Assembly: GCA_044892525.1 (NCBI GenBank)
Contig: CM097885.1
Location: forward strand, 14,944,001 to 15,008,000
Direction of reading: 5' to 3'
Source of the DNA: Schmidtea polychroa
Taxonomy: Eukaryota
DNA length: 64,000 bases
Positions 1 to 30,960 of this stretch are shown one piece after another; within the stretch, counting starts at the first letter, position 1; the number at the start of each line of letters is the position of its first letter. The notes under the pieces were generated by a model. It did no database searches. It was not told the DNA's origin and saw only the letters and a program-made list of their open reading frames with translations. The position numbers and the translations under genes were made by a program.

Positions 1-155
1 CTATCTACTCCTAGTGTATCCGACAAAATATTTTGTCCCCCTATGGGTAATGCTCACAAGGGTACTGGTCACGCTCAACAAATCAACAAATCAACAAAAC
101 ATACATTTATTTAAACAATAAAATAATGTAAAATTAACAAAGGTAAACTAAATAT
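1..155. repeat. Inner portion of left terminal inverted repeat
   Basis: Reverse complement of 17360-17514 with 2 mismatches seen; includes the 16-bp palindrome GACAAAATATTTTGTC. Confidence 0.95.
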
Positions 156-783
156 ATATAGTATGATATTCATTAATCAGTGTTGAACAGGCTTGACACT
201 TGCGAACATTCTTCTCATGACACTTAGAACAAACAATTACGTGACCACACGGTAAATACAAAACCGAAACTCGATTTTCTTTACAAATTGAACAAGTTAA
301 ATATCTTTTCTTAACATCTTTCAATTTTTTCGTTAGCTTATTTTCAATCAAATCGGCTTTCGCTATCCATTCATAAATCAATCTACTATATCCAGGTTTC
401 AACCTTAAAAACATACAACTCCAAAAGTATTCATTCAGTGAATCGTTGTTTACTGCTATTTTTTCTAAGTACATTAAATAACAAGATAACTTTAAAATGG
501 ATTTCTCATAATTAAATAAATCAAACAAATATTCAATAGAGGAATGTTTGAAAATTTTTAAAATATTTATGAGTTGCTTATCACTGTAAGTATCATGATT
601 ATTTATAAAATCTTCAAGTGTATTGTTAAAAAATGTCAATGAAATTTCAGAATAGGCTGGACTTAATTTTTCCTTATTTCTAGTAGGACTTCCTTGCTAT
701 AAATGACATATAAAAAAAAATTGCCAAAATAATAAAGTTACCAAATGTGTTACACATTCATCGGTTTTATTTGTATAAATCAT
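148..783 (-). CDS. C-terminal RING-HC (IAP/MDM2-type) E3 ligase-like protein, about 196 aa, 2 exons (742-783, 148-696)
   Basis: CSICKENRVSVLYLPCGHVIVCSKC...CQAC at the extreme C-terminus. A 45-bp GT-AG intron (697-741) joins ATG 783 in frame. No BIR domain recognisable. Confidence 0.8.
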
Positions 784-923
784 TATTAAAAACTAAATTA
801 CTTTTGTTTTTTTTTACATTTATAAAAATTGTGATAACCAATCAAAATAGAGCTTTCAAAATGTAACCATCAAATGTATAACAATAATAAGCATGACTAG
901 TACCCTTTGCAACCTGTTTTAAG

Positions 924-1136
<213 letters not shown>

Positions 1137-1141
1137 TTCAT

Positions 1142-1303
1142 TGATATAGCTGCATGCTCACTGCAGACTATATATAAAAATACTGATATAGCTGCATGCT
1201 CACTGCAGACTATATATAAAAATACTGATATAGCTGCATGCTCACTGCAGACTATATATAAAAAAACTGTTATAGCTGCATGCTCACTGCAGACTATATA
1301 AAA
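1142..1303. repeat. 4 x 42-bp tandem repeat with dyad core TAGCTGCATGCTCACTGCAGACTA
   Basis: Units start at 1142, 1184, 1226 and 1268. Confidence 0.95.
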
Positions 1304-1528
1304 ATCACCATTAAATATAAAAAATTATAATAAAACACCAAATACTTAAAAAATTAAAAAAAAATCTGATTAAAAATTTTATTGAATATGTATATATAAA
1401 TACAAGTTTTATACAATATACAGGTTTTTGTACAAGTTTTTAAATAAAAGTTTCTATACAATTTTTTTTATAAATCATGAAATCACTATACAAGTTTTTA
1501 TAAATCAAAAATATAAAGTTTTTTCTAT

Positions 1529-4500
1529 TTAAATTTGATCTTCGTCCCATTCGCTGTCGTCAAAACTGGGACTTGGAGCTGCACTGAATTCCTCATCATA
1601 TTCGCTTAATTCGTCAACTCCTAAATAGTGCCCAAATGCGTAACTTAAGTTCTTCCCTAGCCACGCGCGCTTATCATCATTATTACTTAGGGCAATTTTC
1701 GAATTTTTAAAAGTAAAAAGTTGGTGATTTCTAGTACCTATTCTAGTCTGCGGTACAGAAATCACCTGATTTGAATGAAAGCAATTTAGATATGATTCGT
1801 GATTTATTGATGTCCCTGGTAATTTAACCCCTTTCGCTTTTACTGTTTCCTTACTACCTAAAAGACTATAACATTTAGGGCGTAAGAAAACCCATTCGGA
1901 ATAACCTAATCCCTTGCTCTCATCTTTAAACTTCCCGATGACAGAGTCAAGGTTCCTATTATATAAGGGGTGTGTTGGATCGTAATTTGACGTATCCAAT
2001 AAATTATCAGAGATCATCTGAGGTAATAGAGTTGTTAATTTTAAATTTTTAATTTCCAAAAAGAAACTGTCGGTATCACCGGCAATAATATTAATTATAC
2101 ATTTATATTGGCGTCTGTACTTCTCCAAATCAATATATTGGAGCTGGTACATCCGCAGTTTAGACAGATCTAGTACTGTTTGACCAATGTAGCTAGGTCT
2201 GTCTAAACAAATCACATCTTTTTCTAAATGTGCCGCAATCAGATCGTTATCGATTCTTATGGACTTTCTGAAAGTCGGCTTTGAGGAGTATACTATCATC
2301 TTTTCGGATGAATTACACAACCTCAAATTCATTCTTTTTTTCAAATTTTCAACCGATTTACCGTAAAGAGAGTTATTATACAATTTAAACAAGTCCCTAT
2401 ATATCTCGCTAGTAGACTGAGATCGTAAAGTGGTGTTGGTGTCTATGTAGGATTTAAAGATAGGTCCTTGTTTAAACTTTATACACCTATGAATATTTAC
2501 AACAACCGCACCTAATTCTATATACAATTTGAGAAGCCTCCAATGAAGAACATAGTTCCTCTTTGGCCAATGCGTAAGCATAAGCTTCTCAACTTTTGAA
2601 TTAGGTGGGCACAACTTTTCCGGCGCAAGCGGAAAATCATTCAAAAAGTCATGCACACATTCCGGAATATCGATATCGACCTCCATAGTATACCCATATG
2701 GAAGGTTATCAATATCCGTGTTCATACATTCAAGTAAAACATCATTCAAGTTATTATTCACCCAAGAAAAATCACCATACGGAAGATTTTGGCTAAGAGC
2801 CCAACCATACAGATTATTTATATCAATGTACAATAATTCTGTATCATCTGAAGTAGCCGTGTAATGTTTGTTAACAAATGTTAACCCACCCCGGATACCT
2901 CCCTCATAGAAATTATACATTTCCATGTCCTGCAGAAGTTCTATTGGTTCCGTTAATGTCATAAGCGCTGAGGCCCATGACATACCGGGAATCCCGTAGA
3001 AATTAAGAGGATCCAGACCTTTGTAAGCAATTGCCTTACCGCGGAATTGCTGAAAATAATCTGCGAGGAGGTATACGTCCAATTTTAGGTAGATTAACAT
3101 ATAATCTAACAAATTATTACAGTTATGCTGACTCCAAATTAGTTGAGCCTCAGCGTACTGATCTTCCGTAACATCAGACCAAATAGGAGGTAATTCTAAA
3201 GTCGATTCAAGAACATCTAAAGAAGTAGCGAAATTATATGGAAAGATACCTTTAGAGTGAATCATCGACCCTTGAAAGACAGACGAAGTTAACGGAAAAG
3301 TAGTTAAGGTTTTCACAGCTTTTGCTAAAGAACAATTAACAAATTGCATGCTGTCAATAAAACGAACAGGCAATTTGTTAATATATGCAATTAAAGATAT
3401 AAATTTTTCTGTAGAGGTAGGTATAATATTAAGTTCCCAAAGGGGAAAATCACTGAGACCATGTTTTAAAATATGGTGGAGGTCATAGCCTCGTAAATTA
3501 TGAAAGACAACAGGTAACAATTTATTAATCCTGCGAGAAACATTGCATTTCCTACATGCCGCTCCGACATATCTACCTGTAAAATGACAATGATCTCTCA
3601 CAGGATTAATAATAGATTTTTTACACAAATAACAAATAGTGGAAGATCGAAAGGCACGCTCCTGAGCAAAAGACAAAGTAGACATACCTTTACGACCTTT
3701 AAGATCATAATATGGCAGGACAATTGTGACAGCAATTTCCTCCACTTTCCTCAAAAAATCCAAAATACAATTAGGTCCAAAAAAATAATAATAAAATTTT
3801 GTGTTTGTATAATTATTAATTAATAAAAGACCTGCTGATATGGGTAAATGTATTTGATGATATGTTTCATGTTCTGGTAAAACCGATTCAAAATCGGCAT
3901 AAATTACGAAGGGAGGTGTAACTGTTTTTGCGTAATCTGTGAATAATAAATCCTTATTTTTAGGAAGTGTATACAAGGTTGTGCCAGTCTGATTTTTACA
4001 GCATAGAGCAACATGCTGATCGAAAGCATTCTTATATCTAAAGCCATTTAAACAATGTGGGCACCAGTTACACCTTATTTGAACGTTAACATTTTCATTT
4101 AAATGGCAATTCATTAATTTGTCCAAGTCTGTCACGGCCGTATAATGATATTTATCTTTATTACTCAAAAGTAATAAATAAATTGGCCTACCATCTATAA
4201 CCTTGGAGCGATGTATGATATTAAGATGAGGGTGGTGAGCTACATAATCCTGAGAAATATCACTATCAGTACTGGCTGGATTATACGAAAGAACGTTTAT
4301 GCTTAAATTTAAATCACGATTTTTCCTTTCAAATTTAGGAATGTTACATAGCCTCATCGGGCAATCGGTGTCTTCGTCATAATTTAATAGAGGTAAAAAT
4401 TCTATATATTTGGCGGCTCTTTGGTGATTACGACCTATTTCTTCTCTTTTTAAAAGTGCAAGAATGCTATATAAGAAACACTTATGGTCGTTGTTTTTAA

Positions 4501-5645
4501 CGTTAATTATTGCATGTTTTAATTTTAAAGCCGATGGGGTTTTTATATAGCTATGTCCGGATAATCTACTAACGGGTGCGTATTTCGTTAAAATAAAATC
4601 TATCTCTAAAATATTCACTACTCGCCACCCGCTTCCTAAATAGGTGAATTGCTCAATCTTTTCATTTAATTTGCTCACCCCCTCGTTTATAAAATTTGCT
4701 GAAAAAACTTGCGCATTGTTTGAAAAATAATTATCCCGGATCTCCCCATCTTTTTCAAATTTAATTAAAATTGTAAATTGGATTTTTACATTGCCCATCT
4801 TTTCTATTTCCTCTATTAATCTTTCTTCAATTTTTGATGTTAGGGCTATTTTAACCAGGTTTTCATTTCTTATATTAAATTTTAAAGTTTTACGTGATCC
4901 ATTCAAATCGGATTCAACAACTGGTTCAAACAAAGAGCCGCCTATTTGAAATATGTTGAAAGACGTTGAAGCTACACATTCATCATTGATGACTATCACT
5001 TCTTGTTGTGTAATGGGTGCTTGTTGTGTAATGGGTGCTTGTTGTGTAATGGGTGCGTTGCTGATGACTATCACTTCAGGTCGCGATAATTTATTAGGAA
5101 TGTAACTTTTAATTAAACCAGCAGGTCTTTTAATAGAATCTTTTTTAATATTTATAATATCTTTTTTAATAATATTTATAGTATCTTTTTTAATAATAAT
5201 AGCATCTTTTTTAATAGAATCTGTTTTTTCTTTTATAATATTTTTTTTAATATTTTTTAAATCTTTTTTAATATCTTTTTTTAAATCTTTTTTAATAATA
5301 TTTTTTGGTAAATTTTTTGATAAATTTTTTTGTAATTTTTTATTTATTTTTTTAAATAAAACATTTTTTGATATCGAAAATTGCCCTAAGTGACTATGAT
5401 GTTTATTAAAAAATTCCCTATATTTTATTTTTTCGCTCGTTACGCATTTGGGGCATATAAAAAAGTTGAGCGAATTAAACGTCTTTTTGTAGTACTTTTT
5501 CATTGTGCGATGACATTTATCGCTATGTCCATTTGCAGCTTGACAATAATTTGGGTATAGTCTACCTGTTAAATAATAAAATTAAAGTTTTTTCTTTTTT
5601 TTCTAATTGTTATTAATTGTTACATCTATAAGGATTTATCATCAT
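1529..5645 (-). CDS. polB: Protein-primed family B DNA polymerase (pPolB); probable 22-nt first exon 5624-5645
   Basis: Exo motifs YADFES and FHNLRGYD; KGIFPY, YIDINNLYG, KLYNNSLYGK, GDTDS, LRPKCY. OTU-like DHKCFLYS...HY segment, C2H2 finger and EndoVII-like CYLC..RDHCH..C..CN. The frame is open to an acceptor at 5566, and intron 5566-5623 gives the N-terminus MMINPYRCRLYPNYC. Confidence 0.96.
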
Positions 5646-5788
5646 TTGTTATTTAATTCAAATGAACTATATAACAAATGATGATAAATCTTTATAGAAA
5701 ATAGGTTAATAGAGAATATTAGAGAGATTTTAGTATATGGGTCAGATTATTATATGTTAAATATTAGACGAGTAAGATTATTATTATT

Positions 5789-5869
5789 AAAGAGAAGTAG
5801 CTGCATGCTCACTGCAGACTACTATATAGCTACATGCTTACTGTAGACTACATTAGAAGGGTCAGATTA

Positions 5870-5941
<72 letters not shown>

Positions 5942-6020
5942 AGAGAAGTAGCTGCATGCTCACTGCAGACTACTATGTAGCTACATGCTTACTGTAGACT
6001 ACATTAGAAGGGTCAGATTA

Positions 6021-6078
<58 letters not shown>

Positions 6079-6164
6079 TTATAAAAGAGAAGTAGCTGCA
6101 TGTTCACTGCAGACTACTATATAGCTACATGCTTACTGTAGACTATAGTAGAAGGGTCAGATTA

Positions 6165-6236
<72 letters not shown>

Positions 6237-6315
6237 AGAGAAGTAGCTGCATGCTCACTGCAGACTACTATGTAGCTACATGCTTACTGTAGACTACATT
6301 AGAAGGGTCAGATTA

Positions 6316-6378
<63 letters not shown>

Positions 6379-6379
6379 G

Positions 6380-6456
<77 letters not shown>
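5789..6456. repeat. 4 x ~80-bp conserved units separated by variable (ATT)n spacers
   Basis: Units AAAGAGAAGTAGCTGCATGC...GGGTCAGATTAT start near 5789, 5940, 6085 and 6235. Confidence 0.93.
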
Positions 6457-6457
<1 letters not shown>

Positions 6458-6559
6458 TTAACTATTGTAGATGCACATTGCAAACTACAAGGATTTTATA
6501 ACTATAATTTTGTAATAACTTTTTAAATATTTTCATAATAATTTCAAAAACATAGTATT

Positions 6560-7030
6560 TACTTCATAAATCATTTTCTTCATAATTTTCGTCATAAGTT
6601 TCATCATAATTTTAGTCATAAAGTATTTTCATCATAAATTTTCGTCATTATTTCATCATAATTTTGGTCATAAATCATAAAGCATTTTCATTATAATTTT
6701 GGTCATAAATCATAAAGCATTTTCATTATAATTTTGGTCATAAAGCATTTTCATCATAATTTTGGTCATAAATCATAAAGCATTTTCATCATAATTTTGG
6801 TCATAAATCATAATAAATCATTTTCATCATAATAATTCATTTTCATCATAATTTTGGTCATAAAGCATTTTCATCATAAATTTTGGTCATAAATCATTTT
6901 CATCATAATTTTGGTCATAAAGCATTTTCATCATAAATTTTCTTCATAATCATTTTCTTCATAAATCATTTTTTCATCATAATTTTTTGGCATATTTTCA
7001 TCATAAAATCATTTTCTTCAACAGTTTCAT
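6560..7030. repeat. Degenerate minisatellite (CATTTTCATCATAATTTTGGTCATAAAG-like units)
   Basis: Irregular tandem units; no sustained reading frame. Confidence 0.85.
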
Positions 7031-7122
7031 TATAATTTTTATCCAAATATTTAAAATATTTTTTATCAAAATGTTTTTTTTATGAAAATATTTAAAAAGT
7101 TGTTACGAAATTTTAATAAATT

Positions 7123-8000
7123 TTAATATAAAAAATATAAAAATAAATGAATCTTACATTTCGATTCCATATCGGAATCAGAGTCCTCCTCATTAGAAGC
7201 GATGTCATTCATTTCGTCCATATTAGAATCAGAGTCCTCCTCATTAGAAGCGATGTCATTCATTTCGTCCATATTAGAACTATTATCGGAATCATCATCT
7301 TCAGCAATTTCATAATCTTCGGCATCAATGTCAACATTGAAAACATTTGAATTTGAATTTGAACATTTGAAAACATTTGAAACATTTTCTAAAATGAAAA
7401 ATTAATTTAATAAAGTGAAAAATAATAAAATTTACTTTTTTCTTCGAAAACCTTGTTTTGCCCAACATTCTTAACTGGGGCATCAATAAATATCAAATCC
7501 TCATCGGCATTAATTTCTTCGTCTTCGCTAATAGTAATAATACTAGGTTCTAAATGCAAAAATTAATTTAATAAAATTTAAAATTATAAATTTACCGATG
7601 ATATTTTCCGTATTTAAAATCGATTCGGCATTAATTTCTTCATCGTCGTCGCTAATAGTAATAATACTAGGTTCTAAATGCAAAAATTAATTTAATAAAA
7701 ATTAAAATTATAAATTTACCGATGATATTTTCCGTATTTAAAATCGATTCGGCATTAATTTCTTCATCGCCGTCGCTAATAGTAATAATACTAGGTTCTA
7801 AATGCAAAAATTAATTTAATAAAAATTAAAATTATAAATTTACCAAAGATATTTTCTACATTTAAAAGCGAATCGTTTTCGGTAACCTCATACCAGTCGA
7901 ATGGTTCTAAATAAAATAGAATAAAATATAATAAAATAGAAAAAAATAAATTACCATTCGTCAAAAGACCTCTCAATACTCGATTCTTGTTGCTTTCCAT
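7123..8000 (-). CDS. Six-exon acidic protein (about 214 aa) with tandem SUMO-interacting-motif-like repeats
   Basis: Exons 7955-8000, 7844-7906, 7720-7797, 7596-7673, 7436-7549, 7123-7388. Five 46-48 bp GT-AG introns, all phase 1, give an uninterrupted frame with 3x EPSIITIS(D/E)xxEE. The 3' end is uncertain (possible further donor at 7157). Confidence 0.8.
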
Positions 8001-8517
8001 TTTGGTTTTTTTTTCGAATTGATTGTGAAATAGATTTTCAAAATTTTAAAATAATTGTGACAAATTTTAGATTTGTCAATGTTTATAAAGAGAATGAATA
8101 TTTTCCTGTCCCAGCCAATGAGAATATAGACACACACACATATACATTGAATATTTTACTCTCTCAACCAATCACACGCATGCATGTATGTAATGTAAAT
8201 CAGTCAGAATTACATGTGACTGCCTTTGTTAGTCATGCCTTTGTTAACTTGCACTGTGCATGCCTCAGGCAAAGGTAGTCTTTATGTTACAAATAATAAT
8301 ATTTATTAGAATAATAATAAAATTAATTAAAAATAATAATATTTTTCACAATAATAATAATATTAATAATAATATTAATAATAATAATATTAATAATAAT
8401 AATAATAATACTATTAATAATAATATTAATAATAATAATATTAATAATATTAATAATAACACAACAACAAAGGAAAGGATACATTTATTAAACATCAAAT
8501 TTATTAAACATTTTTCT

Positions 8518-8904
8518 TTAAACATCAAATTTTTTGTACAATAACCAAGCTAAACAATGTTGACCGCATGTTTGGGTCAAAGGATTTTGAAACATAGTTT
8601 TATTATACACAATAGGTTTTCCCATTGTTTGTAGTTTTGATATCAACAAAGCTGGGTAATAGAAACCCATAGGATCGAACACGAATATATTACCAGGTTT
8701 CACATATATAGCTATCCAATGTTCTCCACCAAGATGAGACGATTGAGTATTGACGATTATTGCTTGATTATTGCTCAAATATGGAATTTTATCAAGAGGA
8801 AAAACTCCAACAAATTCATTTCCCAATATCTGTTTTCCGATTTTATTGACCTGAACAGAACTATTTAAATAAATCCAGAGTATAAAAAAAACAACTTACT
8901 CCAT
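8518..8904 (-). CDS. Adenain-like (C5) virion maturation cysteine protease, 2 exons
   Basis: IIVNT...GEHW...FDPMG...Q...CGQHC catalytic motifs. A 39-bp intron (8861-8899, donor GTAAGT) supplies the ATG: MDSVQVNKIGKQILGNEFVGVFP. Confidence 0.92.
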
Positions 8905-8931
8905 GATAACTTTTTGTGTTTCTGTATACAT

Positions 8932-10152
8932 TTATACCAACACGGTTCTATTTGCAGTAATTTGAACTTCATTTTCAAATACTCCATATATTATAACATG
9001 TACTGGTTCTGTAATGGCTCTTGCAAACTTTATATCCAGTCGTAAATTCCCGTTTTGTGGTAATTGACTTTGATTTAAATCAAAATCAGGGGCTAAAACA
9101 AATGTAAAAAATGGGTATTTGCTTTTAAAATCTTCTAGTGTTATTCCGCAATTCAAATTTTTATCTAAATAACCCAGATTTCTAACAATACTCTGCATAT
9201 ATGTCGCGCAGTAATTGTCATTCTCGAAATCTTGAATATATGTTTCTCTATAATCAGTATTTTTCGACAAAGTCAATGATGTAACACCAAAGTTTTTGAA
9301 AATTGAGCTGGACGCAGTGTATGATCCATTATATTGTGCTTCACTTTGAAATGTTATCAGAATAAAATTAGGCATTCTTCTGTCACCAAATATTTGTTCT
9401 TTATAGAATGATGAAGCACCTTTAGCAATAGCAAATTGTACAATTTCCTTTGTTTTTAAGGGATAAATTGCATGTTTTGAATTAAGACCCAATTGATGAC
9501 CAGCTAATACAGAGGGGTCTACTCGAACTCTTCTCACCAATAATTTTGCATCAACTAATTGACATATTGGTGTAGTAGTTGCACTAGTAAGAGATAATGC
9601 AGAATCAGACCTTTTCAGTCTAATATGTACATTAACCCCCGGTAGTAAATATTTCGGTTGATCCATAAAATCAAGTTGTAACGATGAGCACATGGTGAAA
9701 ACCTTTGAGCCTTTTACCCACTTTTTTCTTTCATCATCACTGCCATAACCCATAGGAGTAAGACATGTATTTTTAGTATCGGAATTGTAATTTAAAATAG
9801 TTTCTATTAATGCCTTGTGAATGAATGTATTATTTCCGCCCTCAATCTTGATATTATTAAATCCCAACACTGCATCTTTAAAAAGAGTATGAAACAGGAA
9901 ATTGTTCGATATTACATCTGCATTGGCATCCAAAACTTTTCTATCTTTATCTACAACCTTAATCTGAACAGTCAATAAAGTATCATTCAAATCTAAATAT
10001 TCGGTTTGCTAACCATTAATATAAAACTCGATATCATTTCTACTATCGGTAATTGAATTCATAGGAAAAACTTCCTCAAATGCCCCAAATTCTATTACAG
10101 CCTGGGGCGACGGTCTATCAAATATACATAATTCGGATTTACCACAAATCAT
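8932..10152 (-). pseudogene. Polinton major capsid protein (double jelly-roll) with one in-frame stop at 10009-10011
   Basis: ATG 10152 (ATGA overlap with upstream stop) reads MICGKSELCIFDRPSPQAVIE...IEFYING*QTEYLDLNDT. Family motifs LDFMDQPKYLLPGV and GNLRLDIKF follow. Confidence 0.87.
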
Positions 10153-10517
10153 TTTGCAAATATAGTTCCATGTCCTTTCATTCGTTTGTTTATACGTGAT
10201 ATTCCATGTCTTTTACGTTTTGGAGCATGAGCTGGAGCTGGAGCTGGAGCTGGTTTTTGAAACATACCTGCAACCCCGGGTAAAACTTTCCCTAATTCTG
10301 CTAAAGCATTTGTTTTTAGAGATGGTAATATTTTCTGTTCATTCATAATAACATCTTTTGCAGTTTTCATACCAAAACTACCAATACGTTTAAGAATAGG
10401 CAATGCAAATCTACCTATTGTTCTCAACCATCCTGATCCGTACTGTTTACCAATAAAATATGGTAAATCACCACCAGATTGGCCACTATACATACTAATA
10501 ATATCAGAATTAGCCAT
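10149..10517 (-). CDS. Small basic Polinton virion protein (QxGxG plus amphipathic helix; core or membrane-lytic type)
   Basis: QSGG..PYF.GKQYGSGWLRTIGRFALPILK with a basic C-terminus; sits between mCP and MCP with coupled stop/start. Confidence 0.75.
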   Translation of the reverse strand: MANSDIISMYSGQSGGDLPYFIGKQYGSGWLRTIGRFALPILKRIGSFGMKTAKDVIMNEQKILPSLKTNALAELGKVLPGVAGMFQKPAPAPAPAHAPKRKRHGISRINKRMKGHGTIFAK

Positions 10518-11568
10518 TTATTTTACGAAAATGTAATGTCAAATGAGTTTTTGAGCCTTTTGGAAATTCGATTAATTGACCAGAATCATCTCTTATATTT
10601 ATTTCTATATTGTTTATACAAGATGTTGAAACAGGTAAATACATGGGATTTTCTACATTGATTTGTACAACTTCATCTTGATCATGTTTTTCAATCCATA
10701 TAGATTTCATTAAAGGAACACTAGAATCGCCAACAATAACTGGTTCCACGATATTACTGTAAATGAACATTTGCTGATGATGTTTAAGGATTTTCGGTTT
10801 GTTTGTTCCTTCACAAATTTGTTCATTTTGTGTACATACTGGTTTAGTCAATCCTAATGTTTTTGTCAAATTTGAGTCAAATTTAACTTGACTAAGATTA
10901 GAATTTATACTAAATCTAAATACTTTATCTTTTTGAAGCTCAAAAATATCGCTACAATTGTCACCTAAATAAGTTTGTAATTGTTCGAGGTCTGTAATAT
11001 ATAAATTATCTTTAAAAGTATATGCATGCTCTGTTATTTCAATGTATGACAGCTTAAATTTGAATTCCACTAAATTATTAGTTTTCGGAAGTGTAGAGAT
11101 ATTTATTTTGACTGTATCATTAAATACATTACGTAAATCAGTAAATCCAAGACGTTTAGCATCAGCCACTGTAGAAAATATAATTTCGAATGGCTTATTC
11201 AAGCAATTCATGTATAAATATTGACCATCATCATAAATTATAGGTTTCCTTGATTTCGATGAACTCGTCAAGTTATAATTATCTTTATCAATAAGAACAT
11301 TAATATATTCCGTTACTGCTACTTTCTTATTATATTCAATAACGGATTTGCTATAGATTGGGAATAAATTGTATACAAATGTAAAATCCAACAGAGCAAC
11401 TTCCCAGTCATTATCCAAATAGATAGGGTTTTGGAGTTCGATGATGAATTTGCTTGCTTGATTTTCTGGATGAATTAATGGACAACTATTGCTCGGCAAA
11501 ATAGTATAAAAATTCACTTTACTATGTCTTTTGCTGATATCCATGACGGGTTTTGATAACCATGCCAT
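10510..11568 (-). CDS. Minor capsid (penton-like) protein
   Basis: FYTILPSNS...F...L.NPIYL..DWEVAL at the N-terminus and FIYSNIVEPVIVGDS..PL...YLPV...I.I.IRD..G..I.F...T.LTLHFR at the C-terminus. Exact start codon uncertain. Confidence 0.87.
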   Translation of the reverse strand: MAWLSKPVMDISKRHSKVNFYTILPSNSCPLIHPENQASKFIIELQNPIYLDNDWEVALLDFTFVYNLFPIYSKSVIEYNKKVAVTEYINVLIDKDNYNLTSSSKSRKPIIYDDGQYLYMNCLNKPFEIIFSTVADAKRLGFTDLRNVFNDTVKINISTLPKTNNLVEFKFKLSYIEITEHAYTFKDNLYITDLEQLQTYLGDNCSDIFELQKDKVFRFSINSNLSQVKFDSNLTKTLGLTKPVCTQNEQICEGTNKPKILKHHQQMFIYSNIVEPVIVGDSSVPLMKSIWIEKHDQDEVVQINVENPMYLPVSTSCINNIEINIRDDSGQLIEFPKGSKTHLTLHFRKING

Positions 11569-12146
11569 TTGACATAGTATTGTTTATCCTTACCGACCTT
11601 TTTAGTTTTCAATATTTTTTGAATTCTAAATACTTTTGGGGGAGGAATGACTTGTAATTCCTGCTCATAAAATTTCCCCTGTAAAATATTATTATCATTG
11701 TCTTTGATGACATACATTACAGGATTCTGTTTAGTATTTATTTTTGAAATTACAAAGACTTCATCACTCCAATTTGTATCAAAATTTTTAATAAATGGTG
11801 ATGCACTAATTTTACTAATTCTAACATGGTCACCGACTTTATATTTAGGTTTTGCAATTTTTACAGATTTCTTAGAAGTCAATGATGTTTTTGATGTAAT
11901 ATCAACCGGTCTCAATCCATTCAGTCCTCGATGTGATGAATGATTATAACTTGTTATTATTTTCGGTAAAGCATTTACCCATTTTTTATTACCTTGATGC
12001 ACGAACAATTTCTTTAATCGATCTCTCAATGTTCGATTAAATCTTTCAACATGGGCAGCTTTGTATTGAGAATGTACCGAGTAGTGATTTATTTTCAGTT
12101 TATCGAGGATTTGCTTAACTTTACTATTGTAGAATTCTTTACCTAA

Positions 12147-12238
<92 letters not shown>

Positions 12239-12626
12239 CTAAATCTGTTTGCAAGTTATTAGGATGTCCGTCTTTAAATAAAATATTAATTGCCTTGGAC
12301 ATTTCTTCTGCAGATTTTGCCTTGACCGGTATTGCTCGTGCAAACCTGCTGTATACATTAATACATGTTAAAATATATTTATTCCCATTGTTAATTTTCG
12401 AATATGGTATCATCTCCATCAAATCCATTTGCCATAAATCGTCAATACCAAATGTTTTATACGCTCTTGTTGGAAATCTTTTCCGCATTGGTTTGTTCAA
12501 ACTGTACGCAAGCTGATCTGATAACCACTTCTGGGTTTCTTTTTTCGAATTCGGAACTCTTTTGTTTAATTTTGCCACTCCACCGAAACCGGCTTCGTCT
12601 TCTGGGTTCGTCCAAATCTTCTCCAT
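11514..12626 (-). CDS. Retroviral-type (rve) integrase with C-terminal chromodomain; 96-bp microsatellite intron 12143-12238
   Basis: DDE motifs WQMDL, QTDLG/KEFYN (restored by splicing) and VERFNRTL; chromo-like YYVKWHGY..SW. Confidence 0.94.
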
Positions 12627-12684
12627 TACAACAAGAAGATTTAAAATTAAATTTAATGTCGGGCAATGAAGGATTAGCACCCAT
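12457..12684 (-). CDS. Putative small N-myristoylated protein overlapping the integrase 5' end
   Basis: 75-aa ORF starting just after the upstream stop at 12688; MGANPS, CC and a basic cluster. Confidence 0.35.
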   Translation of the reverse strand: MGANPSLPDIKFNFKSSCCNGEDLDEPRRRSRFRWSGKIKQKSSEFEKRNPEVVIRSACVQFEQTNAEKISNKSV

Positions 12685-12687
12685 TGT

Positions 12688-13221
12688 TTATGATTGATTT
12701 CCTACAACTCCACCTAATAATGATAATGCCAGAGGTATTAATGCGCCAATAAATCCACCTTGTTGTTTATATATAATTTTTCTCATTTGCTTACGATTTT
12801 TATTATTTACTAAAGATAACAATGGTTTCCTATGTTTGCTCAATAAATGCTTTTTTGATTTACTGATTTTAATTTTGCCTTTGACTACTTTAAGTATAAT
12901 ATTGAGTAAATCATCGACAACAAAATTTGGGAATGATTGCAATATATTCATTCTTTTCATACTCGGGGCCTTTAACAATGCATTAAAAAATGGAAAACTG
13001 CGATGATTTTTAATTACTTTTTTACCGGCTTTACGGGTTTTACGGGTTTCACGTTTAGGTTTAGGATTTTTCGAAATAAGATTCATTGCAGAGAAATTTC
13101 CAGTTACAAGTTTTTTAGATGGTGTATAACTAGTTGTTGGTGGAACTTTTGGAACTTTAATACTCTTTTTAATACTTTTTCTTAATTTCCTAATATTTTT
13201 CACCCTTGCTTTTAGAAACAT
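12688..13221 (-). CDS. Very basic Polinton core-like protein with C-terminal QxGGF plus hydrophobic tail
   Basis: Lys/Arg rich; ends KQQGGFIGALIPLALSLLGGV. Confidence 0.78.
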   Translation of the reverse strand: MFLKARVKNIRKLRKSIKKSIKVPKVPPTTSYTPSKKLVTGNFSAMNLISKNPKPKRETRKTRKAGKKVIKNHRSFPFFNALLKAPSMKRMNILQSFPNFVVDDLLNIILKVVKGKIKISKSKKHLLSKHRKPLLSLVNNKNRKQMRKIIYKQQGGFIGALIPLALSLLGGVVGNQS

Positions 13222-13239
13222 TATTATTCATAGAGGTTT

Positions 13240-13866
13240 TCAACTTTGTTTATAAACCATGGCACCTTTTGGGTTGAAAATATCTGTTTTTACTCGTAAA
13301 TCATCGGGACATTGTTGTGTGAAATCAAGAAATATATATCCATGAGGTATTTTTCTAGCATCTTGAAATGCACTGATAAGAAAATTACGATTGTTAGGGT
13401 ATGCTTGACGTGCAAGAAAATCAATCACTGTTGCATCTCTAGGATTCTTGAAAATGACTAAATACTGTACATTTAAATTACGTGTTCGATGTGCCCCACC
13501 TTGATGAAATAGATTTTGAGTTATGAAAATAACTGTTACACCGACATGTCTGCTGATCTTTGTAAATAAATTATTAAAATCTTTTTCTTTATTAGCTTCT
13601 TGATACAAATCATCGATAATAATGACATCACCTTTCTTTAATCGGCTGGACCAGTTTTTATCGAATACCTTTACTATTTTCATGTTTTTTAATTTACAGA
13701 AACTTGATTGAGTTAATCCATGTTCTTCATCAGCACCCCTATGCCAATAAATCCTGTTGAATTTTGATTTGAATAAATTTGATTTTAGTAATTTACAAAC
13801 AAATAATGTTTTTCCACTACCACTCGGACCAACGATTTGGTATACTGCATCATTTCTTAATTCCAT
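13240..13866 (-). CDS. A32/FtsK-HerA type genome packaging ATPase
   Basis: Walker A GPSGSGKT, Walker B IIIDDL, SRH...FITQNLF, FKNPRD. Confidence 0.95.
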   Translation of the reverse strand: MELRNDAVYQIVGPSGSGKTLFVCKLLKSNLFKSKFNRIYWHRGADEEHGLTQSSFCKLKNMKIVKVFDKNWSSRLKKGDVIIIDDLYQEANKEKDFNNLFTKISRHVGVTVIFITQNLFHQGGAHRTRNLNVQYLVIFKNPRDATVIDFLARQAYPNNRNFLISAFQDARKIPHGYIFLDFTQQCPDDLRVKTDIFNPKGAMVYKQS

Positions 13867-13965
13867 TTCAAAGATTTTATAAATGGATATTTGTTTATAT
13901 TCGATGATTTAATGAACTCATGCTCAATTTGTATATAAAGACTAATTTTCATAAATGATTTAATA

Positions 13966-14403
13966 ATGTTAGCAAATATAAATTATCGAGGAAATTTTGA
14001 TGTATCGAATATGAGGTTCCCACCAGGGAAACCTCAGCAAATTATCGATAGAAGCGGGAAATATCCGATAATATTTTTCAAGACTGGTAAATGCCGAATC
14101 ATGGGATGTAAGAAACCTTTGGATATTAATAAATTACAATATCGAATAAATAATATTAAAATCCAATCAATTACCGTTACTATGGATATGGGACATAGTA
14201 TCAATCTATATAACATGTCGAAAAAATGTGATTGTATGTTTGAACCGGAATTGTTTCCGGCACTAAGACTAATAAAATATAACCCTATATGTGTCAACGT
14301 GTTTGCTAGTGGAAAGGTTGTCATGTTGGGGTTGAGAAATTTGGAGTATAGAGAATTTGTTGACAATGTTCGAAATGAGATAATTTCATTGGTCGATTTT
14401 TAA
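13966..14403 (+). CDS. TATA-binding protein (TBP)-like protein
   Basis: Two TBP repeats: IFFKTGKCRIMG and INL...FEPELFPAL...VNVFASGKVVMLG. Confidence 0.88.
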   Translation: MLANINYRGNFDVSNMRFPPGKPQQIIDRSGKYPIIFFKTGKCRIMGCKKPLDINKLQYRINNIKIQSITVTMDMGHSINLYNMSKKCDCMFEPELFPALRLIKYNPICVNVFASGKVVMLGLRNLEYREFVDNVRNEIISLVDF

Positions 14404-14473
14404 TTGGTTAATTTCTAATTGGTTATTGATTGATTTAAACAAACGGTTTTTTGTTTAGAATTCATTTTTCACT

Positions 14474-14891
14474 ATGTACAAAATACCAAGCTCTGCAACC
14501 CTCATGAAGGATATTGACGATTCCGGTAAATTTAAAATTTTTATTTTCACATTATTTACTATTTATTATTTTAGAAAAATATATCAAAGTTATGATCAAT
14601 AGAATAAAATATTATTATCCGCAAATCAATGAAATTATCAAGGATAGAGAAGCAGAAATAATTCCGGACCTCATTTTCTACAAAACACAAATTAGAATAA
14701 TGGAGGTATTTCACCAGTTTCTGTGGGATTTAAAGATAAACAGAAGCATCAAACAAATGGAGCCAGAGTACCAGTGCATCATCGGATGCTCATGCTGTGC
14801 CGATCGATATCGGCGATATGTCGAATGGGAGTTAGTGAAAACTCTGCGAAGGTTTCACTACTCCCGGATTGTAGATCTTGGATATGAATAA
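14474..14891 (+). CDS. Hypothetical protein, 2 exons (14474-14525, 14575-14891)
   Basis: A 49-bp GT-AG intron (14526-14574) joins MYKIPSSATLMKDIDDS to EKYIKV...; Cys cluster CIIGCSCC; AATAAA overlaps the stop. Confidence 0.65.
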
Positions 14892-15295
14892 ATGTATTTT
14901 TGTATCTGTTGTGTTTTTATATTTGAAATAGTAATAAATAATAGTAATAAATAATAATATTAATAATAATAGAAATAATAATAGTAATAATAGAAATATG
15001 AATAGTAATAATAATAGAAATAATAGTAAAAAAACATTAATAATAATAATGAAACACATTATTAATAAATCTGTAAATAGAACATATAACAAAACATGTA
15101 ATAATTAAAACATTAATAATAAAACACATAAATAATAAATCTGTAAATAGAACATATAACAAAACATGTGACAATGCAACATCAATGCATTTTGAATGCA
15201 ATTTTAAACAAAGACATGCTGTAATCTGATTGGTTGATAGACATGAGTCAAAGGTATAAAAACCCTGTAACATTTCAATTTATTCATTATTCACG

Positions 15296-15706
15296 ATGAC
15301 CAAGAAAATTTCAAGCACCGAAAAACCAAAAGAAATGGTACAACCAGTTCAAATGTTCCACAACTACAAAATGTATTTTTTGAAAGAAGAAATCAATATG
15401 AAATTGGTTGCACCAGTCAAGCTAATTCCAACTAAATTCGAATTCTTATCCGGCACGCTTTCAATGATTGATGTCAAAACTATTGATGATGTTTTTAAAC
15501 GGATAGATTCGAATCTATCGTGTAATCAACATGCATGGTTCAACAATAGATATGCAAGATTTTATGATGCTTTTGATGAAATCAGTTTCAAAGAAAATGA
15601 AAATTGGTATATAACAATAGCAATCCAGGGATATAAAGTTGATAATAATGATGTATATTCTCCTATTTGGAAAATTATGTCTGCTAGACTTTCACAAATA
15701 TTTTAA
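15296..15706 (+). CDS. Hypothetical protein, possibly an OB-fold ssDNA-binding protein
   Basis: Own CCAAT/TATA promoter and AATAAA. C-terminal ITIAIQGY..YSPIWKI..ARL resembles viral SSB strands (impression only). Confidence 0.55.
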   Translation: MTKKISSTEKPKEMVQPVQMFHNYKMYFLKEEINMKLVAPVKLIPTKFEFLSGTLSMIDVKTIDDVFKRIDSNLSCNQHAWFNNRYARFYDAFDEISFKENENWYITIAIQGYKVDNNDVYSPIWKIMSARLSQIF

Positions 15707-15832
15707 TGTTATATTTAATAAATGTATTAGTCAGATTTGTTTTTCTCTTTATTAATTGCAACATAAATGCAAATGACCTGCAAATTTAACAAAGAAAATC
15801 TATAAACAAAATTATAATATAGTTTTAAAGTG

Positions 15833-16218
15833 ATGAAAATGACTGCAGAAAAAGGTTAACATGATTAATTAATTACCGAATTATTTATTATTTAGAATTT
15901 TTAATCAACTTTTTGTTGGAAAAGTTAGCAGAAATATCTGGTGTGAAAATGGAGGATATATTATCTATTACAAATGCCTTAAATATCGGCTGGTTAGTTG
16001 AGAGTCAAGATACAGGATTTGATGATGAGGAAGAAACTCAAGAAATTGATGAGGAAGAAACACAAGAGGAAATGTATGAACCTATAGAGGAACCTATAGA
16101 GGAACCTATAGAGGAACCTAAAGATGAATCTAAAGATAATATTACGAATGATTGTATTGATCATGTCGTTGAAAATATAATGAAATGTGGAGATGACGAC
16201 TGCGAATGTGTTAATTAA
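15833..16218 (+). CDS. Small acidic protein with EEPI repeats, 2 exons (intron 15855-15895)
   Basis: A 41-bp intron joins MKMTAEK to EFLINFLLEKLAE in frame. Confidence 0.6.
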
Positions 16219-16286
16219 TAAATCTTAGTGTTTGTAAATTTATTTAAAATTTTATTTAAAAATCAAACAAAATAACTATATAAATT

Positions 16287-16801
16287 TTATTTAAAAAAAC
16301 GACATAAAACATATAAAATAGCAACACCTGTTGCAAGTTTTAAATAGTTTTTAAATTGGATTTTTTGCTGATCTAATTCTTTTGCATTTCTGGCGAGTCG
16401 ATTCAGCACGCCCCATCCGCCATTGGCTTCAATCCATGGCTGAAACTTTGACTTGATTATCTAGAAAATATATATTAATAAAATATAGATTATAAAAGTA
16501 TTACTTCTTGAGACCACTGATAATAGTGCTCGGAATCCAATAGGCTTTTTTCAATTATTATCTTCATATAAGCGAACCCTACTAATATTCGGGTCCACTT
16601 CATCTCCTCGTCGCATAAGCAATTAAATATTCTATTAAAATAGAATTTCTTTGTTTCGAGGGAATCGGAATTGAGGACGTCCTCATAATCAATGTGATTA
16701 CCTTCTATAATCTTTTCGGTCCGATCGACCAGGAAAATTAGGCTTTCCATAATATTCCTGTTGATGAGTTCTCTTAACATATTTTCCATTAAATTAGACA
16801 T
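16287..16801 (-). CDS. Bcl-2 family protein (156 aa), 2 exons (16505-16801, 16287-16460)
   Basis: BH1-like DEEMKWTRILVGFAY. After a 44-bp intron: BH2 PWIEANGGW and tail anchor YLKLATGVAILYVLCRFFK*. Confidence 0.87.
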
Positions 16802-17359
16802 TTTTACAATATTTTAAAATATGATGTTTTATTTATACTAATACCGGATGATTTTGATTGGTTGATAGACTATAAATGTAAAAGAAAGGTTTTGATTTGA
16901 TACACCATGAAAACTATATTCATATTGCTAATTATTATAACGAGTGTGTGCTCACACAATACAACAATAACAGTGGAGTCTTTTAATAAATCAATATGTG
17001 TTTGTCCGAATACAGCCAAGTTGATGGATATTTTATATATTCTCGACAAACCAAAATGGTCAAAGCATCCAGGAAAAAGAATATCTCAAAGATTGGAGAA
17101 TTTAGAAAACAGTTATGAACTATCATTTGAATATATACAAAATATAAAATTTGAATTGATTGATCATATTAAGGTTTTCAATAACTCTATTGTTGAAAAT
17201 AAAATGAATATGAAAATAATTGATAAGAAGCATGATTATTTGTTAAAAAAGATTGAATTATTATTAAGAGAAATTCAAACAATCAAAGGATCAATAGAAT
17301 CTCTGAAAATCAATTCAACGTTACCAATTTCTAACAATATTGCTGCGAATAGTACATCA

Positions 17360-18683
<1,324 letters not shown>

Positions 18684-22347: not shown

Positions 22348-24807
22348 TATAGTTCCTCTACCGGTAAAAACCTTTACCGTTTACCGGTAAATTGCGCATT
22401 TTTACATTACCGTTTACCGGTAAAAATATTTACTAAATTACCGGTAATACGGTTATTGTGCAAAATAAAAAAATATTATATTTATCCTATAACAATAAAT
22501 ATAAAAACCAGTAAAACTGAATTACTTAAAGAACTGTGCATGTGATTTTGTGATTTTTTATTTAAAATAAATAATATTTCGTAATACATAGAAACAAATT
22601 TTTAGAAACAAAAAATCTCGTAAGTAATATAAGATTTATCTATAACGTTATTGATTTATTATTAAAATAAAATTATATTGAAAAATTAATATTTTTTAAT
22701 AAATAGAATATTGTTTAAATAGAATATGGGTTCTTCAAATGTTTGGGAGCATTTTGAAAAGCGAAAAGACAGTAATAAAGAAGCTATATGCAGATTATGT
22801 AAAAAATCTATTAAATGTGATGGTGGTTCAACAAGTGGAATGATTTCGCACCTTAAACTTGTACATAAAATTTTGATCAAAAAAGCAGCTGATAATGATG
22901 CAGGTCCTAGTACTTCTGCCTCTACATTTAAAAAGGATAAAATATTAATATCCAGTTATTTACAACGTGAAACTTTAGAAGAGATTGTGTCTAGACTAAT
23001 TGCTTTAGATGATTTCTCTTATTATGGCGTCACAAATTCGTCTTTCATTCGGCAAAGTATAAATAAACTAGGACACAAGCTTCCAAAAAATTCAACGGGC
23101 ACGATGGAATTGGTAAAAGTTATTACGAAAAAATAAAAATACAACTTGTAGAACAATTACAGTCCAAAATTTCTATTGGGAAACGATTTTCGCTGTCTGT
23201 AGACGAATGGACAAGCATCAAAAATAGAAGATATTGCAATATTATTTTGTATGATGACAAAGAAAATGACAATCTTGGTTTAGCAAGAATAACTGGAAAA
23301 TGTGATGCAAAAAATATTCAGGCAATAATAAGAAACCGATTAAATGAGTTCAACGTATATTTTGATCATCATATTTTATGTTCAATCAACGATGGTGCAG
23401 CAGTAATGCAAAAATATAATAGAGAAAGTCCAGTTGAACCGGTATTATGCTTAAACCATGCACTACATTTATCAGTAACCAAGTTTTTCTACCAAAAATA
23501 TGTTGATGAAACTGACCAGAGTTCAATTGCAAATGAGAAAGACATTATTTTGGAAGAGGAATATGACAGTGACGCTGACATTGATGATGGTGACTCTGCT
23601 GAACCAGATAACCATATGATAATTGAAAAGATAAACGAGGCAATTGAAAATGATGAATACAGTCATTCAATATTTTTCATTCAATTGCAAGCCTTACGCA
23701 GCGTCATTAAATATTTTCGATTATCGTCATTGAAAAATGATTTTTTGCAAGAGAAGATAAAAATTCGACTTGGCAAAGAACTGGAATTAAAAATAGATAT
23801 AAAGACACGTTGGAATTCCATCGATCCCATGATAGAACGATATTTACAAGTAAAAGAAGAAGTAAAAGAAGCCTTAGAATATTTTAATTCTCTTCATTTG
23901 TTTTCCAGAAAAGACGAAAAATATTTGATAAACATTCAAAAAATTTTAGAGCCAGTTCGGATTGCCGCAGAAGCCTTAGCAAGAAATGATGCTATTTACC
24001 ACGGAAAGTGTAATTGAATTGTTATGTTCAACATTGGAAAAAAATACCGATTCACCAATAACTTCTAACTTCTTAGTTTGTTTGAAAAGAGAAATTGATA
24101 AAAGACGTAATATTAAATTATTGTCTCTTGTACAGTACATACTTCATCCAAAAAATTTAATGAAACGAAATGTTCACTTTGATTACTGTTCAAAGTTATC
24201 GACAGTGGCATTTGGGAAAAAATAATTGAAAGATTATTCAAATCAGATGAGTCAGCAGAATCAGATTCAGAAGATAATGTCGAGACCGACCTTTTAAATA
24301 CTGACTTGAAATCTCAATTTCAAAAAGCTATTTCTACAGCTATGGTTTCCATTTCCAGTAAACCAGTAGGATTATTATCATCAGTCCAGAAAGAGTTTTT
24401 ATTTTTTGAAGTATCCGGGTAAAAAAAGTCATAATCTCACACTTTTGTTCGAAGCTCTGCAAACCGCAAAACCAACATCTACAGACAATGAAAGAACATT
24501 CTCCATAGCGAGCCGAGTTTGCACTAAAATAAGAACTAGGTTATCGGATGAAAATTTGCACATTATCGTTTTCCTTAAATATTTCTTTTTGAAACAAAAT
24601 GTTAACAAAAATAATGAATAATTTAAATTTTTGTATTTAGTTCTTTTCTTGAATGATTTCTTTTATATAATATGTATGAAATAAACATATTGTAATGTTT
24701 TTTTTCAATTAAACCATGATTTTGTTTTAATTTCTGGTAAAATGTTTATTACCGAAATTTACCGGTTTTACCGGTAAAATAAAACATACGGTAATTGAGG
24801 AACAGTA
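22348..24807 (+). mobile_element. hAT transposon, full length, frameshifted BED-finger transposase (22726-24621), 8-bp TSD GTCATAAC
   Basis: VWEHF..C..C BED finger, DEWTS, DGA, CLNHALHL, TRWNS, ERTFS. TIRs TATAGTTCCTC/GAGGAACAGTA, subterminal TTACCG repeats, TSD at 22340-47 and 24808-15. Confidence 0.93.

Positions 24808-29763: not shown

Positions 29764-30960
<1,197 letters not shown>

What the first reader, a model, noticed from the sequence alone, without database searches (positions are those of the whole stretch)
16287..16801. Cryptic two-exon viral Bcl-2 homologue
Seen: exon 1 has a BH1-like KWTRILVGFAY (canonical NWGRIVAFF). Removing the 44-bp intron adds PWIEANGGW (canonical BH2 WIxxNGGW) and a hydrophobic tail ending RFFK, typical of a mitochondrial anchor. 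The ORF track shows only the truncated first exon. Established: adenoviruses (E1B-19K), herpesviruses and poxviruses use vBcl-2 to block apoptosis. Inference: this Polinton behaves like a true virus that manipulates cell death.
Basis: partly seen in the sequence, partly recalled or inferred. Interest (0 to 1): 0.85.

Follow-up and report, generated by a model that had tools for sequence, protein, structure and literature searches.

The report
Host-derived spliced Bcl-2 in planarian Polinton
A virus-like jumping element in a flatworm genome carries a small, well-conserved two-exon copy of one of its host's own Bcl-2 cell-death regulators, probably to keep the cell alive while the element copies itself, a kind of cargo already noted for this class of elements but never tested.

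Summary
Exon 1 (16801-16505) and exon 2 (16460-16287) align without gaps to residues 37-126 and 127-181 of a Schmidtea mediterranea Bcl2-like protein. The 44-nt GT-AG intron lies exactly between them. Both splice sites are kept in 59 of 59 sampled family copies, and both exons are under purifying selection in the predicted frame. The gene sits in a complete 19.8-kb, high-copy Polinton. Sister families carry the same intron, or an intronless version that folds like Bcl-xL. The closest cellular relative is one single-copy host gene, probably the orthologue of pro-survival bcl2-1, not the Burro retrotransposon Bcl-2. Not shown: splicing in RNA, anti-apoptotic activity, virions. BH1 is non-canonical (W-T-R), inherited from the host gene. 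Bcl2 cargo in adintoviruses/Polintons is already in print (PMC8502044). The traceable donor and the element-specific intron are the new parts. This scan reported the same gene earlier in another copy in this genome (e1-7879924).

The parts
16505..16801 (-). Bcl-2 gene exon 1, 99 codons: helix 1 (BH4-like), short loop, degenerate BH3-position helix, BH1 (KWTR), start of helix 6
   Evidence: P0003 residues 37-126, no gaps; purifying selection; Atlas: Bcl-2 clusters, score 0.92, recognition below threshold
16461..16504 (-). 44-nt phase-0 GT-AG intron, at a site not used by the host donor gene
   Evidence: GT and AG in 59 of 59 rows, length 42-52 nt; same site in families C, D, E, F, 38-54 nt
16287..16460 (-). 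Bcl-2 gene exon 2, 57 codons plus stop: end of helix 6, BH2 (WIEANGGW), linker, hydrophobic tail anchor with basic end
   Evidence: P0003 residues 127-181, no gaps; selection only in this frame; best 17-residue hydropathy 1.71; host 1.39
16831..16837 (-). TATAAAT box 36 nt before the start codon, with a CCAAT motif further upstream
   Evidence: box at 33-37 nt in 7 of 7 family-A representatives and at 43-53 nt in 3 of 3 of families C, D, E; absent in family B and the host gene; 0.065 of 46-nt windows of the element hold such a motif
1..18683 (.). Polinton/Maverick carrying the gene; begins 1133 nt before the window, 19,816 bp in all; ends AGTAGA..TCTACT, 6-bp target duplication TCAATG, terminal inverted repeats of about 1.3 kb
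1529..5503 (-). Protein-primed PolB with endonuclease-VII-like insert
   Evidence: EndoVII only; 58-61% identical to the family-B PolB, which hits PF03175 at E 5.9e-34; polymerase motifs visible
8518..8931 (-). Adenovirus-type cysteine protease, with a 39-nt candidate intron starting at 8899
   Evidence: (PF00770, E 3e-06)
8932..10152 (-). Putative major capsid protein (named by position and size only); this copy is broken by an in-frame stop at 10011-10009
   Evidence: no database hit
10510..11568 (-). Putative minor capsid (penton) protein, named by position only
   Evidence: no informative hit
11514..12626 (-). Retroviral-type integrase with chromodomain; the poly-Ile stretch is a 96-nt GT-AG intron starting at 12238
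   Evidence: 80, 82, 117, 144 nt in four other copies; absent in family B
13240..13866 (-). A32-like packaging ATPase
   Evidence: PF04665, E 1.2e-06
13966..14403 (+). TBP-like protein, found near the Bcl-2 gene in families A and B
   Evidence: (PF00352, E 1.3e-15)

Best explanation
A functional Bcl-2-family gene that is fixed cargo of a group of planarian Polintons. SHOWN: exon structure by homology, conservation of both splice sites, purifying selection on both exons, Bcl-2 fold of an intronless sister protein, closest cellular relative. INFERRED history: an ancestral Polinton took a copy of the host bcl2-like gene that lacked the ancient intron at the BH2 'GGW' (probably a spliced-mRNA copy). 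The helix1-helix2 loop was shortened by 11-15 residues. The lineage leading to families A, C, D, E, F gained a new short intron in helix 6; family B has none. INFERRED mechanism: host RNA polymerase II transcribes it from a TATA promoter, the host spliceosome removes the intron, and the tail anchors the 156-aa protein in the mitochondrial or ER membrane. There it supplements the host pro-survival Bcl-2 by holding Bak-type or BH3 proteins in check, so the cell survives the DNA ends and integration damage of element replication. Confidence: spliced, functional Bcl-2-fold gene about 0.93; host bcl2-like donor about 0.9; pro-survival role about 0.6.
For: Gap-free, abutting alignment to P0003. GT and AG in 59 of 59 rows (58 places) while intron length takes all three values modulo 3. 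dN/dS 0.08-0.35 in the 46 rows with pS of 0.12 or more (rows not independent). Exon 2 is selected only in the predicted frame in 9 of 9 representative copies (p 3.5e-4 to 7.8e-3; other frames p 0.30 or more). A profile of the family finds Bcl-xL at E 1.7e-10 over both exons. The intronless family-B protein folds at pLDDT 90 and matches Bcl-xL and Hydra Bcl-2-4 at Z 16.2, rmsd 1.8-2.1 over 120 residues. All 12 Polinton rows score 59-84 bits against the host gene or P0003 and at most 24 bits against six other Bcl-2 loci of this genome or Burro. The host gene is single-copy, has the GGW intron (about 3 kb), and no Polinton gene was found in about 10 kb upstream or 25 kb downstream. That intron is ancestral in animal Bcl-2 genes (PMC8998228), which sets the direction host to element. 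Planarian bcl2-1 RNAi causes systemic cell death and lysis (PMC6970515, PMC4993586). No canonical BH3: Val at the Bcl-xL Gly94 position. Short helix1-helix2 loop as in herpesvirus v-Bcl-2 (PMC1238745).
Against: No RNA evidence of splicing or expression was obtained. No spliced product was found in protein databases; the hits are unspliced gene calls. The model of a close copy read through its intron was poor (pLDDT 55; best Foldseek E 0.026, TM 0.31), and the window's own product was not folded. BH1 lacks the conserved Gly in all rows, and family B has Lys or the unnamed relative P0009 Gln in place of the Arg, so the BH3-binding groove may not work in the usual way (PMC8998228, PMC1238745). 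That P0003 (ACW83059.1) is bcl2-1 is my inference by recall and elimination (it is not Bok-1, Bok-2 or Bcl2-3); no paper I could open links the accession to the name. Tree support for the Polinton-plus-host group is moderate (93/96, 74/95, 83/95). One capture versus several is unresolved (AU p 0.43 and 0.45).
Confidence: 0.6

Rival explanations
1. Real and selected, but its job is not blocking mitochondrial apoptosis: it binds Beclin or innate-immune adaptors, or acts on ER membranes, as several poxvirus and herpesvirus Bcl-2-fold proteins do.
For: Non-canonical BH1 and loss of the Arg in family B; 23-45% identity between families; poxvirus A46, A52, B14, A49 share the fold at Z 7-8.5 (their signalling roles are recalled).
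Against: Tail anchor kept in families A, C, D; best structural matches are pro-survival proteins; the host donor has the same BH1 change.
Confidence: 0.22
2. A decoy or pro-death protein: it antagonises the host pro-survival protein or permeabilises membranes late in replication to release particles.
For: The top Foldseek hit of the poor read-through model was a Bax dimer (E 0.026). An earlier scan note ties a TATAAAC box to late genes (e1-7879962, unchecked); this gene has a similar TATAAAT box.
Against: No Gly-Asp BH3 motif; it groups with the bcl2-like gene and not with the Bok or other loci; more than 150 copies are tolerated in the genome.
Confidence: 0.1
3. The intron is not removed: the gene is a split relic or makes only the 103-aa exon-1 product.
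For: No RNA evidence; databases hold only the truncated form.
Against: Exon 2 under selection in one frame; splice sites fixed while length varies; the read-through tail differs in length and sequence between subfamilies; the donor GT is lost only in two decayed copies, L052 and L056.
Confidence: 0.04
4. Reverse direction: the host bcl2-like gene was domesticated from a Polinton.
For: In the best tree the outgroup joins inside the Polinton rows, so the host gene is formally nested among them (support 46-56).
Against: The host gene has the ancestral GGW intron shared with the other host paralogues; monophyly of the Polinton rows is not rejected (p 0.43); long outgroup branches.
Confidence: 0.04

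Closest known systems
Schmidtea mediterranea Bcl2-like protein (UniRef C9WPR4, ACW83059.1; probably bcl2-1) and its orthologue in this genome (L020/L039, 89-90% identical)
   Same: Colinear over the whole core and tail, same W-[ST]-R BH1, same helix-6/BH2 register.
   Different: 25% identity; loop 15 residues shorter; no GGW intron, a different intron instead; more than 150 copies inside mobile elements.
Adintovirus/Polinton Bcl2 accessory genes (Starrett et al., PMC8502044)
   Same: Bcl2 homologue as accessory cargo of an animal Polinton, next to PolB, integrase, ATPase, protease; IAP homologues also listed.
   Different: There it is one sentence and three map labels, with no flatworm named in the text or readable supplement, no donor, no intron and no selection test. 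Homology between those genes and this one was not tested.
Burro (GYPSM1) LTR retrotransposon BCL2-like domain of planarians (PMC6431247)
   Same: Another giant planarian mobile element with apoptosis-related cargo.
   Different: A domain inside a polyprotein; 16-22% identity and at most 17 bits to the Polinton proteins; a separate acquisition.
Viral Bcl-2 proteins (gammaherpesvirus M11/KSHV Bcl-2/BHRF1, ASFV A179L, adenovirus E1B-19K, iridovirus Bcl-2)
   Same: Fold (Z 11.7-14.0 for the family-B model), small size, short helix1-helix2 loop (PMC1238745).
   Different: No sign of common viral ancestry (best BFVD E 3.7e-3); activity untested; spliced.
Nematode Maverick cargo genes (wasp, krma; bioRxiv 10.1101/2022.07.12.499685)
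   Same: Intron-containing cargo near a terminal repeat.
   Different: There the core genes are intronless and the cargo is exchangeable. Here the intron is not the donor's, the cargo is stable across families, and core genes (integrase, probably protease) also have introns.

Membership tests
Bcl-2 family (PF00452) | Pfam model over the gathering cut-off | tested here: met
   Sister copies 32.6-34.5 bits across both exons and family B 32.5 bits, cut-off 31.4. The window's exons singly are below cut-off (14.5 and 12.3 bits).
Bcl-2 family (PF00452) | Helical bundle around a central hydrophobic helix 5 | tested here: met
   Met for the intronless family-B protein (pLDDT 90, Z 16.2). For family A only by alignment; its own model was low-confidence.
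Bcl-2 family (PF00452) | BH2 motif and C-terminal membrane anchor | tested here: met
   (sequence features; localisation not tested)
Pro-survival Bcl-2 / v-Bcl-2 | Canonical BH1 NWGR | tested here: not met
   KWTR; the Arg is kept in families A, C, D, E, F, the Gly in none of them; the host gene has RWSR.
Pro-survival Bcl-2 / v-Bcl-2 | Binds BH3 peptides and blocks Bak/Bax killing | not testable with these tools
   No assay; no complex prediction was run.
Pro-apoptotic Bax/Bak/Bok | BH3 motif L-x-x-x-G-D | tested here: not met
   L-x-x-x-V-D at the aligned position; groups apart from the Bok loci.
Polinton/Maverick | Terminal inverted repeats, AG..CT ends, 6-bp target duplication | tested here: met
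Polinton/Maverick | pPolB, integrase, A32 ATPase, adenovirus-type protease | tested here: met
   (PolB through the family-B homologue)
Polintovirus/adintovirus | Double jelly-roll major and single jelly-roll minor capsid proteins | tested here: inconclusive
   ORFs of fitting size and place, conserved (76-77% to family B), but no hit and no fold was run.
Polintovirus/adintovirus | Forms infectious particles | not testable with these tools
   No data.

The most novel reading that the evidence does not exclude
Planarian Polintons captured the host's essential survival gene bcl2-1, trimmed its regulatory loop as herpesviruses did, and have kept it under selection across at least six families. With the separately acquired Bcl-2 and BIR domains of Burro retrotransposons, this would mean that apoptosis is a main defence against mobile elements in planarian stem-cell lineages, and that two unrelated giant elements converged on disarming it. 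Planarian RNAi makes this the first Polinton anti-death gene that is easy to test in a whole animal.
Probability: 0.35. Interest if true: 0.72.

Novelty: new variant of a known kind. Interest (0 to 1): 0.45.

Why it matters
Polinton accessory genes are mostly untested labels on genome maps. Here the donor gene, the direction of capture, an element-specific intron and the selection on both exons can all be read from one genome, in an animal group where loss of the likely donor is lethal and RNAi works. It gives a direct way to ask whether Polintons manipulate host cell death. It also shows that these Polintons hold spliceosomal introns in accessory and core genes, unlike intact vertebrate Mavericks (PMC8097293), so ORF-based annotation truncates their genes.

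Tried and rejected
RNA evidence: the run search listed 14 runs, 9 holding part of the stretch, none on record as RNA (no RNA holder listed, no evidence either way). No reads could be laid, so splicing in RNA stays open. Search for an intronless family-A copy in the genome with a profile was not possible for this genome; none was apparent among the 150 scored matches of the host-gene search, which is a weak test. Relatives in viral and metagenome contigs: none confirmed. Representative-protein search: 5 hits; P0010 is a chance match to a mollusc repeat protein, one hit had no sequence, P0009 and P0011 are unnamed relatives of the host gene. Read-through model of a close copy: too poor to use. 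Burro as donor: rejected. Inheritance from adenovirus E1B-19K or other viral Bcl-2: no support. Alternative splice pairs: seven other frame-keeping pairs would delete conserved residues. Trees: Burro, L021 and L023 were left out, and P0011 as well, as long or short rows; single versus repeated capture unresolved. Capsid identity: no hit in Pfam, PHROGs, PDB sequences or viral contigs. Pellettieri 2010 and Bender 2012 are not held. Literature searches for a planarian Polinton Bcl-2 (term search in PMC11410931, no occurrences) found none. The library lacks most subscription papers and Repbase reports. Starrett Fig. S1 (slides) and Table S1 could not be read and may bear on novelty. No complex prediction was run.

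Full report
OBSERVATION. On the minus strand an ATG at 16801 opens 99 codons, followed by a 44-nt AT-rich GT..AG stretch (16504-16461) and a second frame of 57 codons to a stop at 16287. Unspliced, the ORF ends after 103 codons. Pfam PF00452 is the only family that either exon hits, weakly and on consecutive parts of the model. The ESM Atlas also returns Bcl-2 clusters for exon 1, as a lead only (score 0.92, recognition under threshold).

SETTING. The window lies in a 781-Mb genome. A host Bcl-2 gene is 89% identical to a Schmidtea mediterranea protein, two other loci are about 91% identical to its Bok-1 and Bok-2, and Burro-like long ORFs are present. I infer a planarian close to that species. 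The gene lies about 0.55 kb inside the right terminal repeat of a Polinton of 19,816 bp that starts 1133 nt before the window and ends at 18683, with AGTAGA..TCTACT ends and a TCAATG target duplication. It encodes PolB, protease, integrase, A32 ATPase, a TBP-like protein, a RING protein and two putative capsid proteins. The capsid names rest on position only (no hit). The putative major capsid gene of this copy has an in-frame stop; 105 of 114 scored matches have a 426-codon open frame at 99% identity or more, so the family expanded recently. Each Bcl-2 exon has at least 150 matches (91-100% and 95-100% identity; only 150 of 2386 and 1878 candidates scored).

THE INTRON IS REAL BY COMPARATIVE EVIDENCE. 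(a) Exon 1 aligns without gaps to residues 37-126 of P0003 (UniRef C9WPR4, ACW83059.1) and exon 2 to residues 127-181 (alignment). (b) I examined 59 rows, 58 distinct places, of family A: 31 picked from the plus-strand matches down the ranking, 7 given by that call, and 21 more divergent ones. The sample is biased to well-preserved copies. All 59 have GT and AG at this site. Length is 44 nt in 45 rows and 42, 43, 45, 47, 48, 51 or 52 nt in 14. Both exons are open in 48 rows, 9 are broken and 2 undetermined (the script failed after printing the table, counts are mine from it). (c) dN/dS against the window is 0.08-0.35 in the 46 rows with pS of at least 0.12; the 13 near-identical rows are uninformative (0.5-1.0 or undefined). 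Rows are related, not independent. In 9 of 9 representatives exon 2 shows excess synonymous change in the predicted frame only. The intron itself is often better kept than synonymous sites (identity 0.95-1.00 at pS 0.35-0.49 in L111, L113, L117). (d) Families C, D, E and F, 29-45% identical at the protein level, have a 38-54-nt phase-0 intron at the same place. Two decayed copies, L052 and L056, have lost the GT. Their loci are mostly fragmentary; C lies upstream of a PolB and D near Polinton fragments, while for E and F a Polinton context was not established. (e) Family B carries an intronless version in elements with TBP-like, PolB, protease, putative capsid and integrase genes. No RNA evidence was obtained.

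FOLD. A profile of the family finds Bcl-xL at E 1.7e-10 over both exons (the profile includes host rows). The family-B protein folds at pLDDT 90 (its alignment included host paralogues) and matches Bcl-xL (Foldseek E 5e-5, TM 0.70; Z 16.2, rmsd 2.1, 120 residues). The best viral match is an iridovirus Bcl-2 at E 3.7e-3. A close family-A copy read through its intron gave a poor model whose top hits were still Bax and Bcl-xL.

ORIGIN. All 12 Polinton rows score far better against one host gene (L020/L039) and P0003 than against six other Bcl-2 loci or the Burro domain. That host gene is single-copy, has no Polinton genes in the flanks examined, and is split by an intron of about 3 kb at GGW. PMC8998228 (section 6 read) describes this intron as conserved from sponges to mouse. 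The Polinton genes lack it, so the simplest history is host to element through an intron-less copy, then gain of a new intron in one lineage. This is inference. Trees put Polinton rows and the host gene on one side with moderate support and cannot tell one capture from several. Polinton families differ from each other far more than the two host orthologues do (23-45% against 90%): either an old capture or fast evolution.

MECHANISM. A TATA box is kept upstream in families A, C, D, E, and the tail is as hydrophobic as the host's. The BH3 position lacks the Gly-Asp motif, which argues against a Bax/Bak-type killer. The helix1-helix2 loop is 11-15 residues shorter than in the host; herpesvirus v-Bcl-2 proteins lack this loop and so escape caspase and kinase control (PMC1238745, passages). 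Planarian bcl2-1 is required for survival (PMC6970515 and PMC4993586, passages citing Pellettieri 2010; the original paper was not held). That P0003 is bcl2-1 is my recall plus elimination. Polintons are de-silenced during normal planarian cell differentiation and repressed by SMEDWI-2 (PMC8532177, passages), which gives a setting where a survival factor would pay. Against: the BH1 Gly is absent and the Arg is not universal in the clade, changes known to alter BH3 binding. I put the pro-survival role at 0.6.

COMPARISON WITH WHAT IS KNOWN. PMC8502044 (passages, supplement search and the text of Fig. S2) already reports Bcl2 and IAP homologues in adintoviruses, so Bcl-2 cargo is a known kind. 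PMC6431247 (section 7 read) reports BCL2-like and BIR domains in planarian Burro elements, so such cargo does not prove a viral life cycle. Intact vertebrate Mavericks are intronless (PMC8097293, passages); nematode Mavericks have intronless core genes and intron-bearing cargo (bioRxiv 10.1101/2022.07.12.499685, passages). Here the integrase has an intron of variable length (96, 80, 82, 117, 144 nt in five family-A copies; none in one family-B copy). PMC7586133 and PMC3566077 (passages) and PMC11463336 (supplement search) did not settle the accession. I found no paper on a planarian Polinton Bcl-2. The scan's own notes hold the same gene from another copy in this genome (e1-7879924); I saw that note after reaching this reading, and it is not independent support.

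VERDICT. Observation confirmed; interpretation partly supported. It is a member of the Bcl-2 family and probably works like a viral Bcl-2, but membership among proven pro-survival v-Bcl-2 proteins is not shown. New variant of a known kind; interest 0.45.

Noticed in passing
window 151-696 (-): ORF with a C-terminal C3HC4 RING (PF13920, E 1.5e-09) at the left end of the element; no BIR domain found, so an IAP link is only a lead. An 88% copy lies in L126.
   Followed up: partly
window 13966-14403 (+): TBP-like gene; stays near the Bcl-2 gene and the 136-aa ORF in families A and B although gene order differs. Already noted as e1-7879962.
   Followed up: partly
window 12238-12143 (-) and 8899-8861 (-): Introns in core genes: a 96-nt ATT-repeat intron in the integrase that mimics poly-Ile, and a 39-nt candidate in the protease.
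   Followed up: partly
window 7100-8050 (-): Run of 46-48-nt GT-AG candidate introns between short acidic exons, three of them in 124-nt tandem units; an unannotated multi-exon gene or a PolB leader (compare e1-7879951).
   Followed up: no
window 16907-17404 (+): 165-aa ORF with an N-terminal hydrophobic segment, a coiled-coil-like middle and a hydrophobic end, running into the right terminal repeat, divergent from the Bcl-2 gene; 84-95% conserved in other copies; no convincing family hit. Could be a surface protein.
   Followed up: partly
L009-L015 (G000:C4:89.9-90.8 Mb): At least seven near-identical Bcl-2 genes with canonical NWGR and no intron at GGW, clustered on one contig; no Polinton genes within about 10 kb of one copy. 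Possibly an amplified retrocopy.
   Followed up: partly
L043, L067, L052: Fold-back arrangements: two inverted Bcl-2-containing arms 6-8 kb apart around rearranged Polinton core fragments.
   Followed up: no
L053:4826-4745 (-): A family-D copy with a tandem duplication of the BH2-containing segment of exon 2 in frame.
   Followed up: no
window 5633-6524, 1100-1304, 6526-7050, 17853-18532: Several tandem repeat arrays inside the element: 151-nt units with ATT tracts, 42-nt units, an AT-rich 35-nt array, and GACCTTGA-rich repeats in the terminal repeats.
   Followed up: no
window 22726-24017, 30316-30573, 33689-34708, 36302-37453, 40433-41135, 56740-58304: Outside the element: BED-finger transposon remnant, a second PolB fragment, an intronless DGAT2-like gene, a cyclin-like gene, a piggyBac-type remnant and further transposase-like fragments (the last and the PolB fragment named from the translation only).
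   Followed up: no
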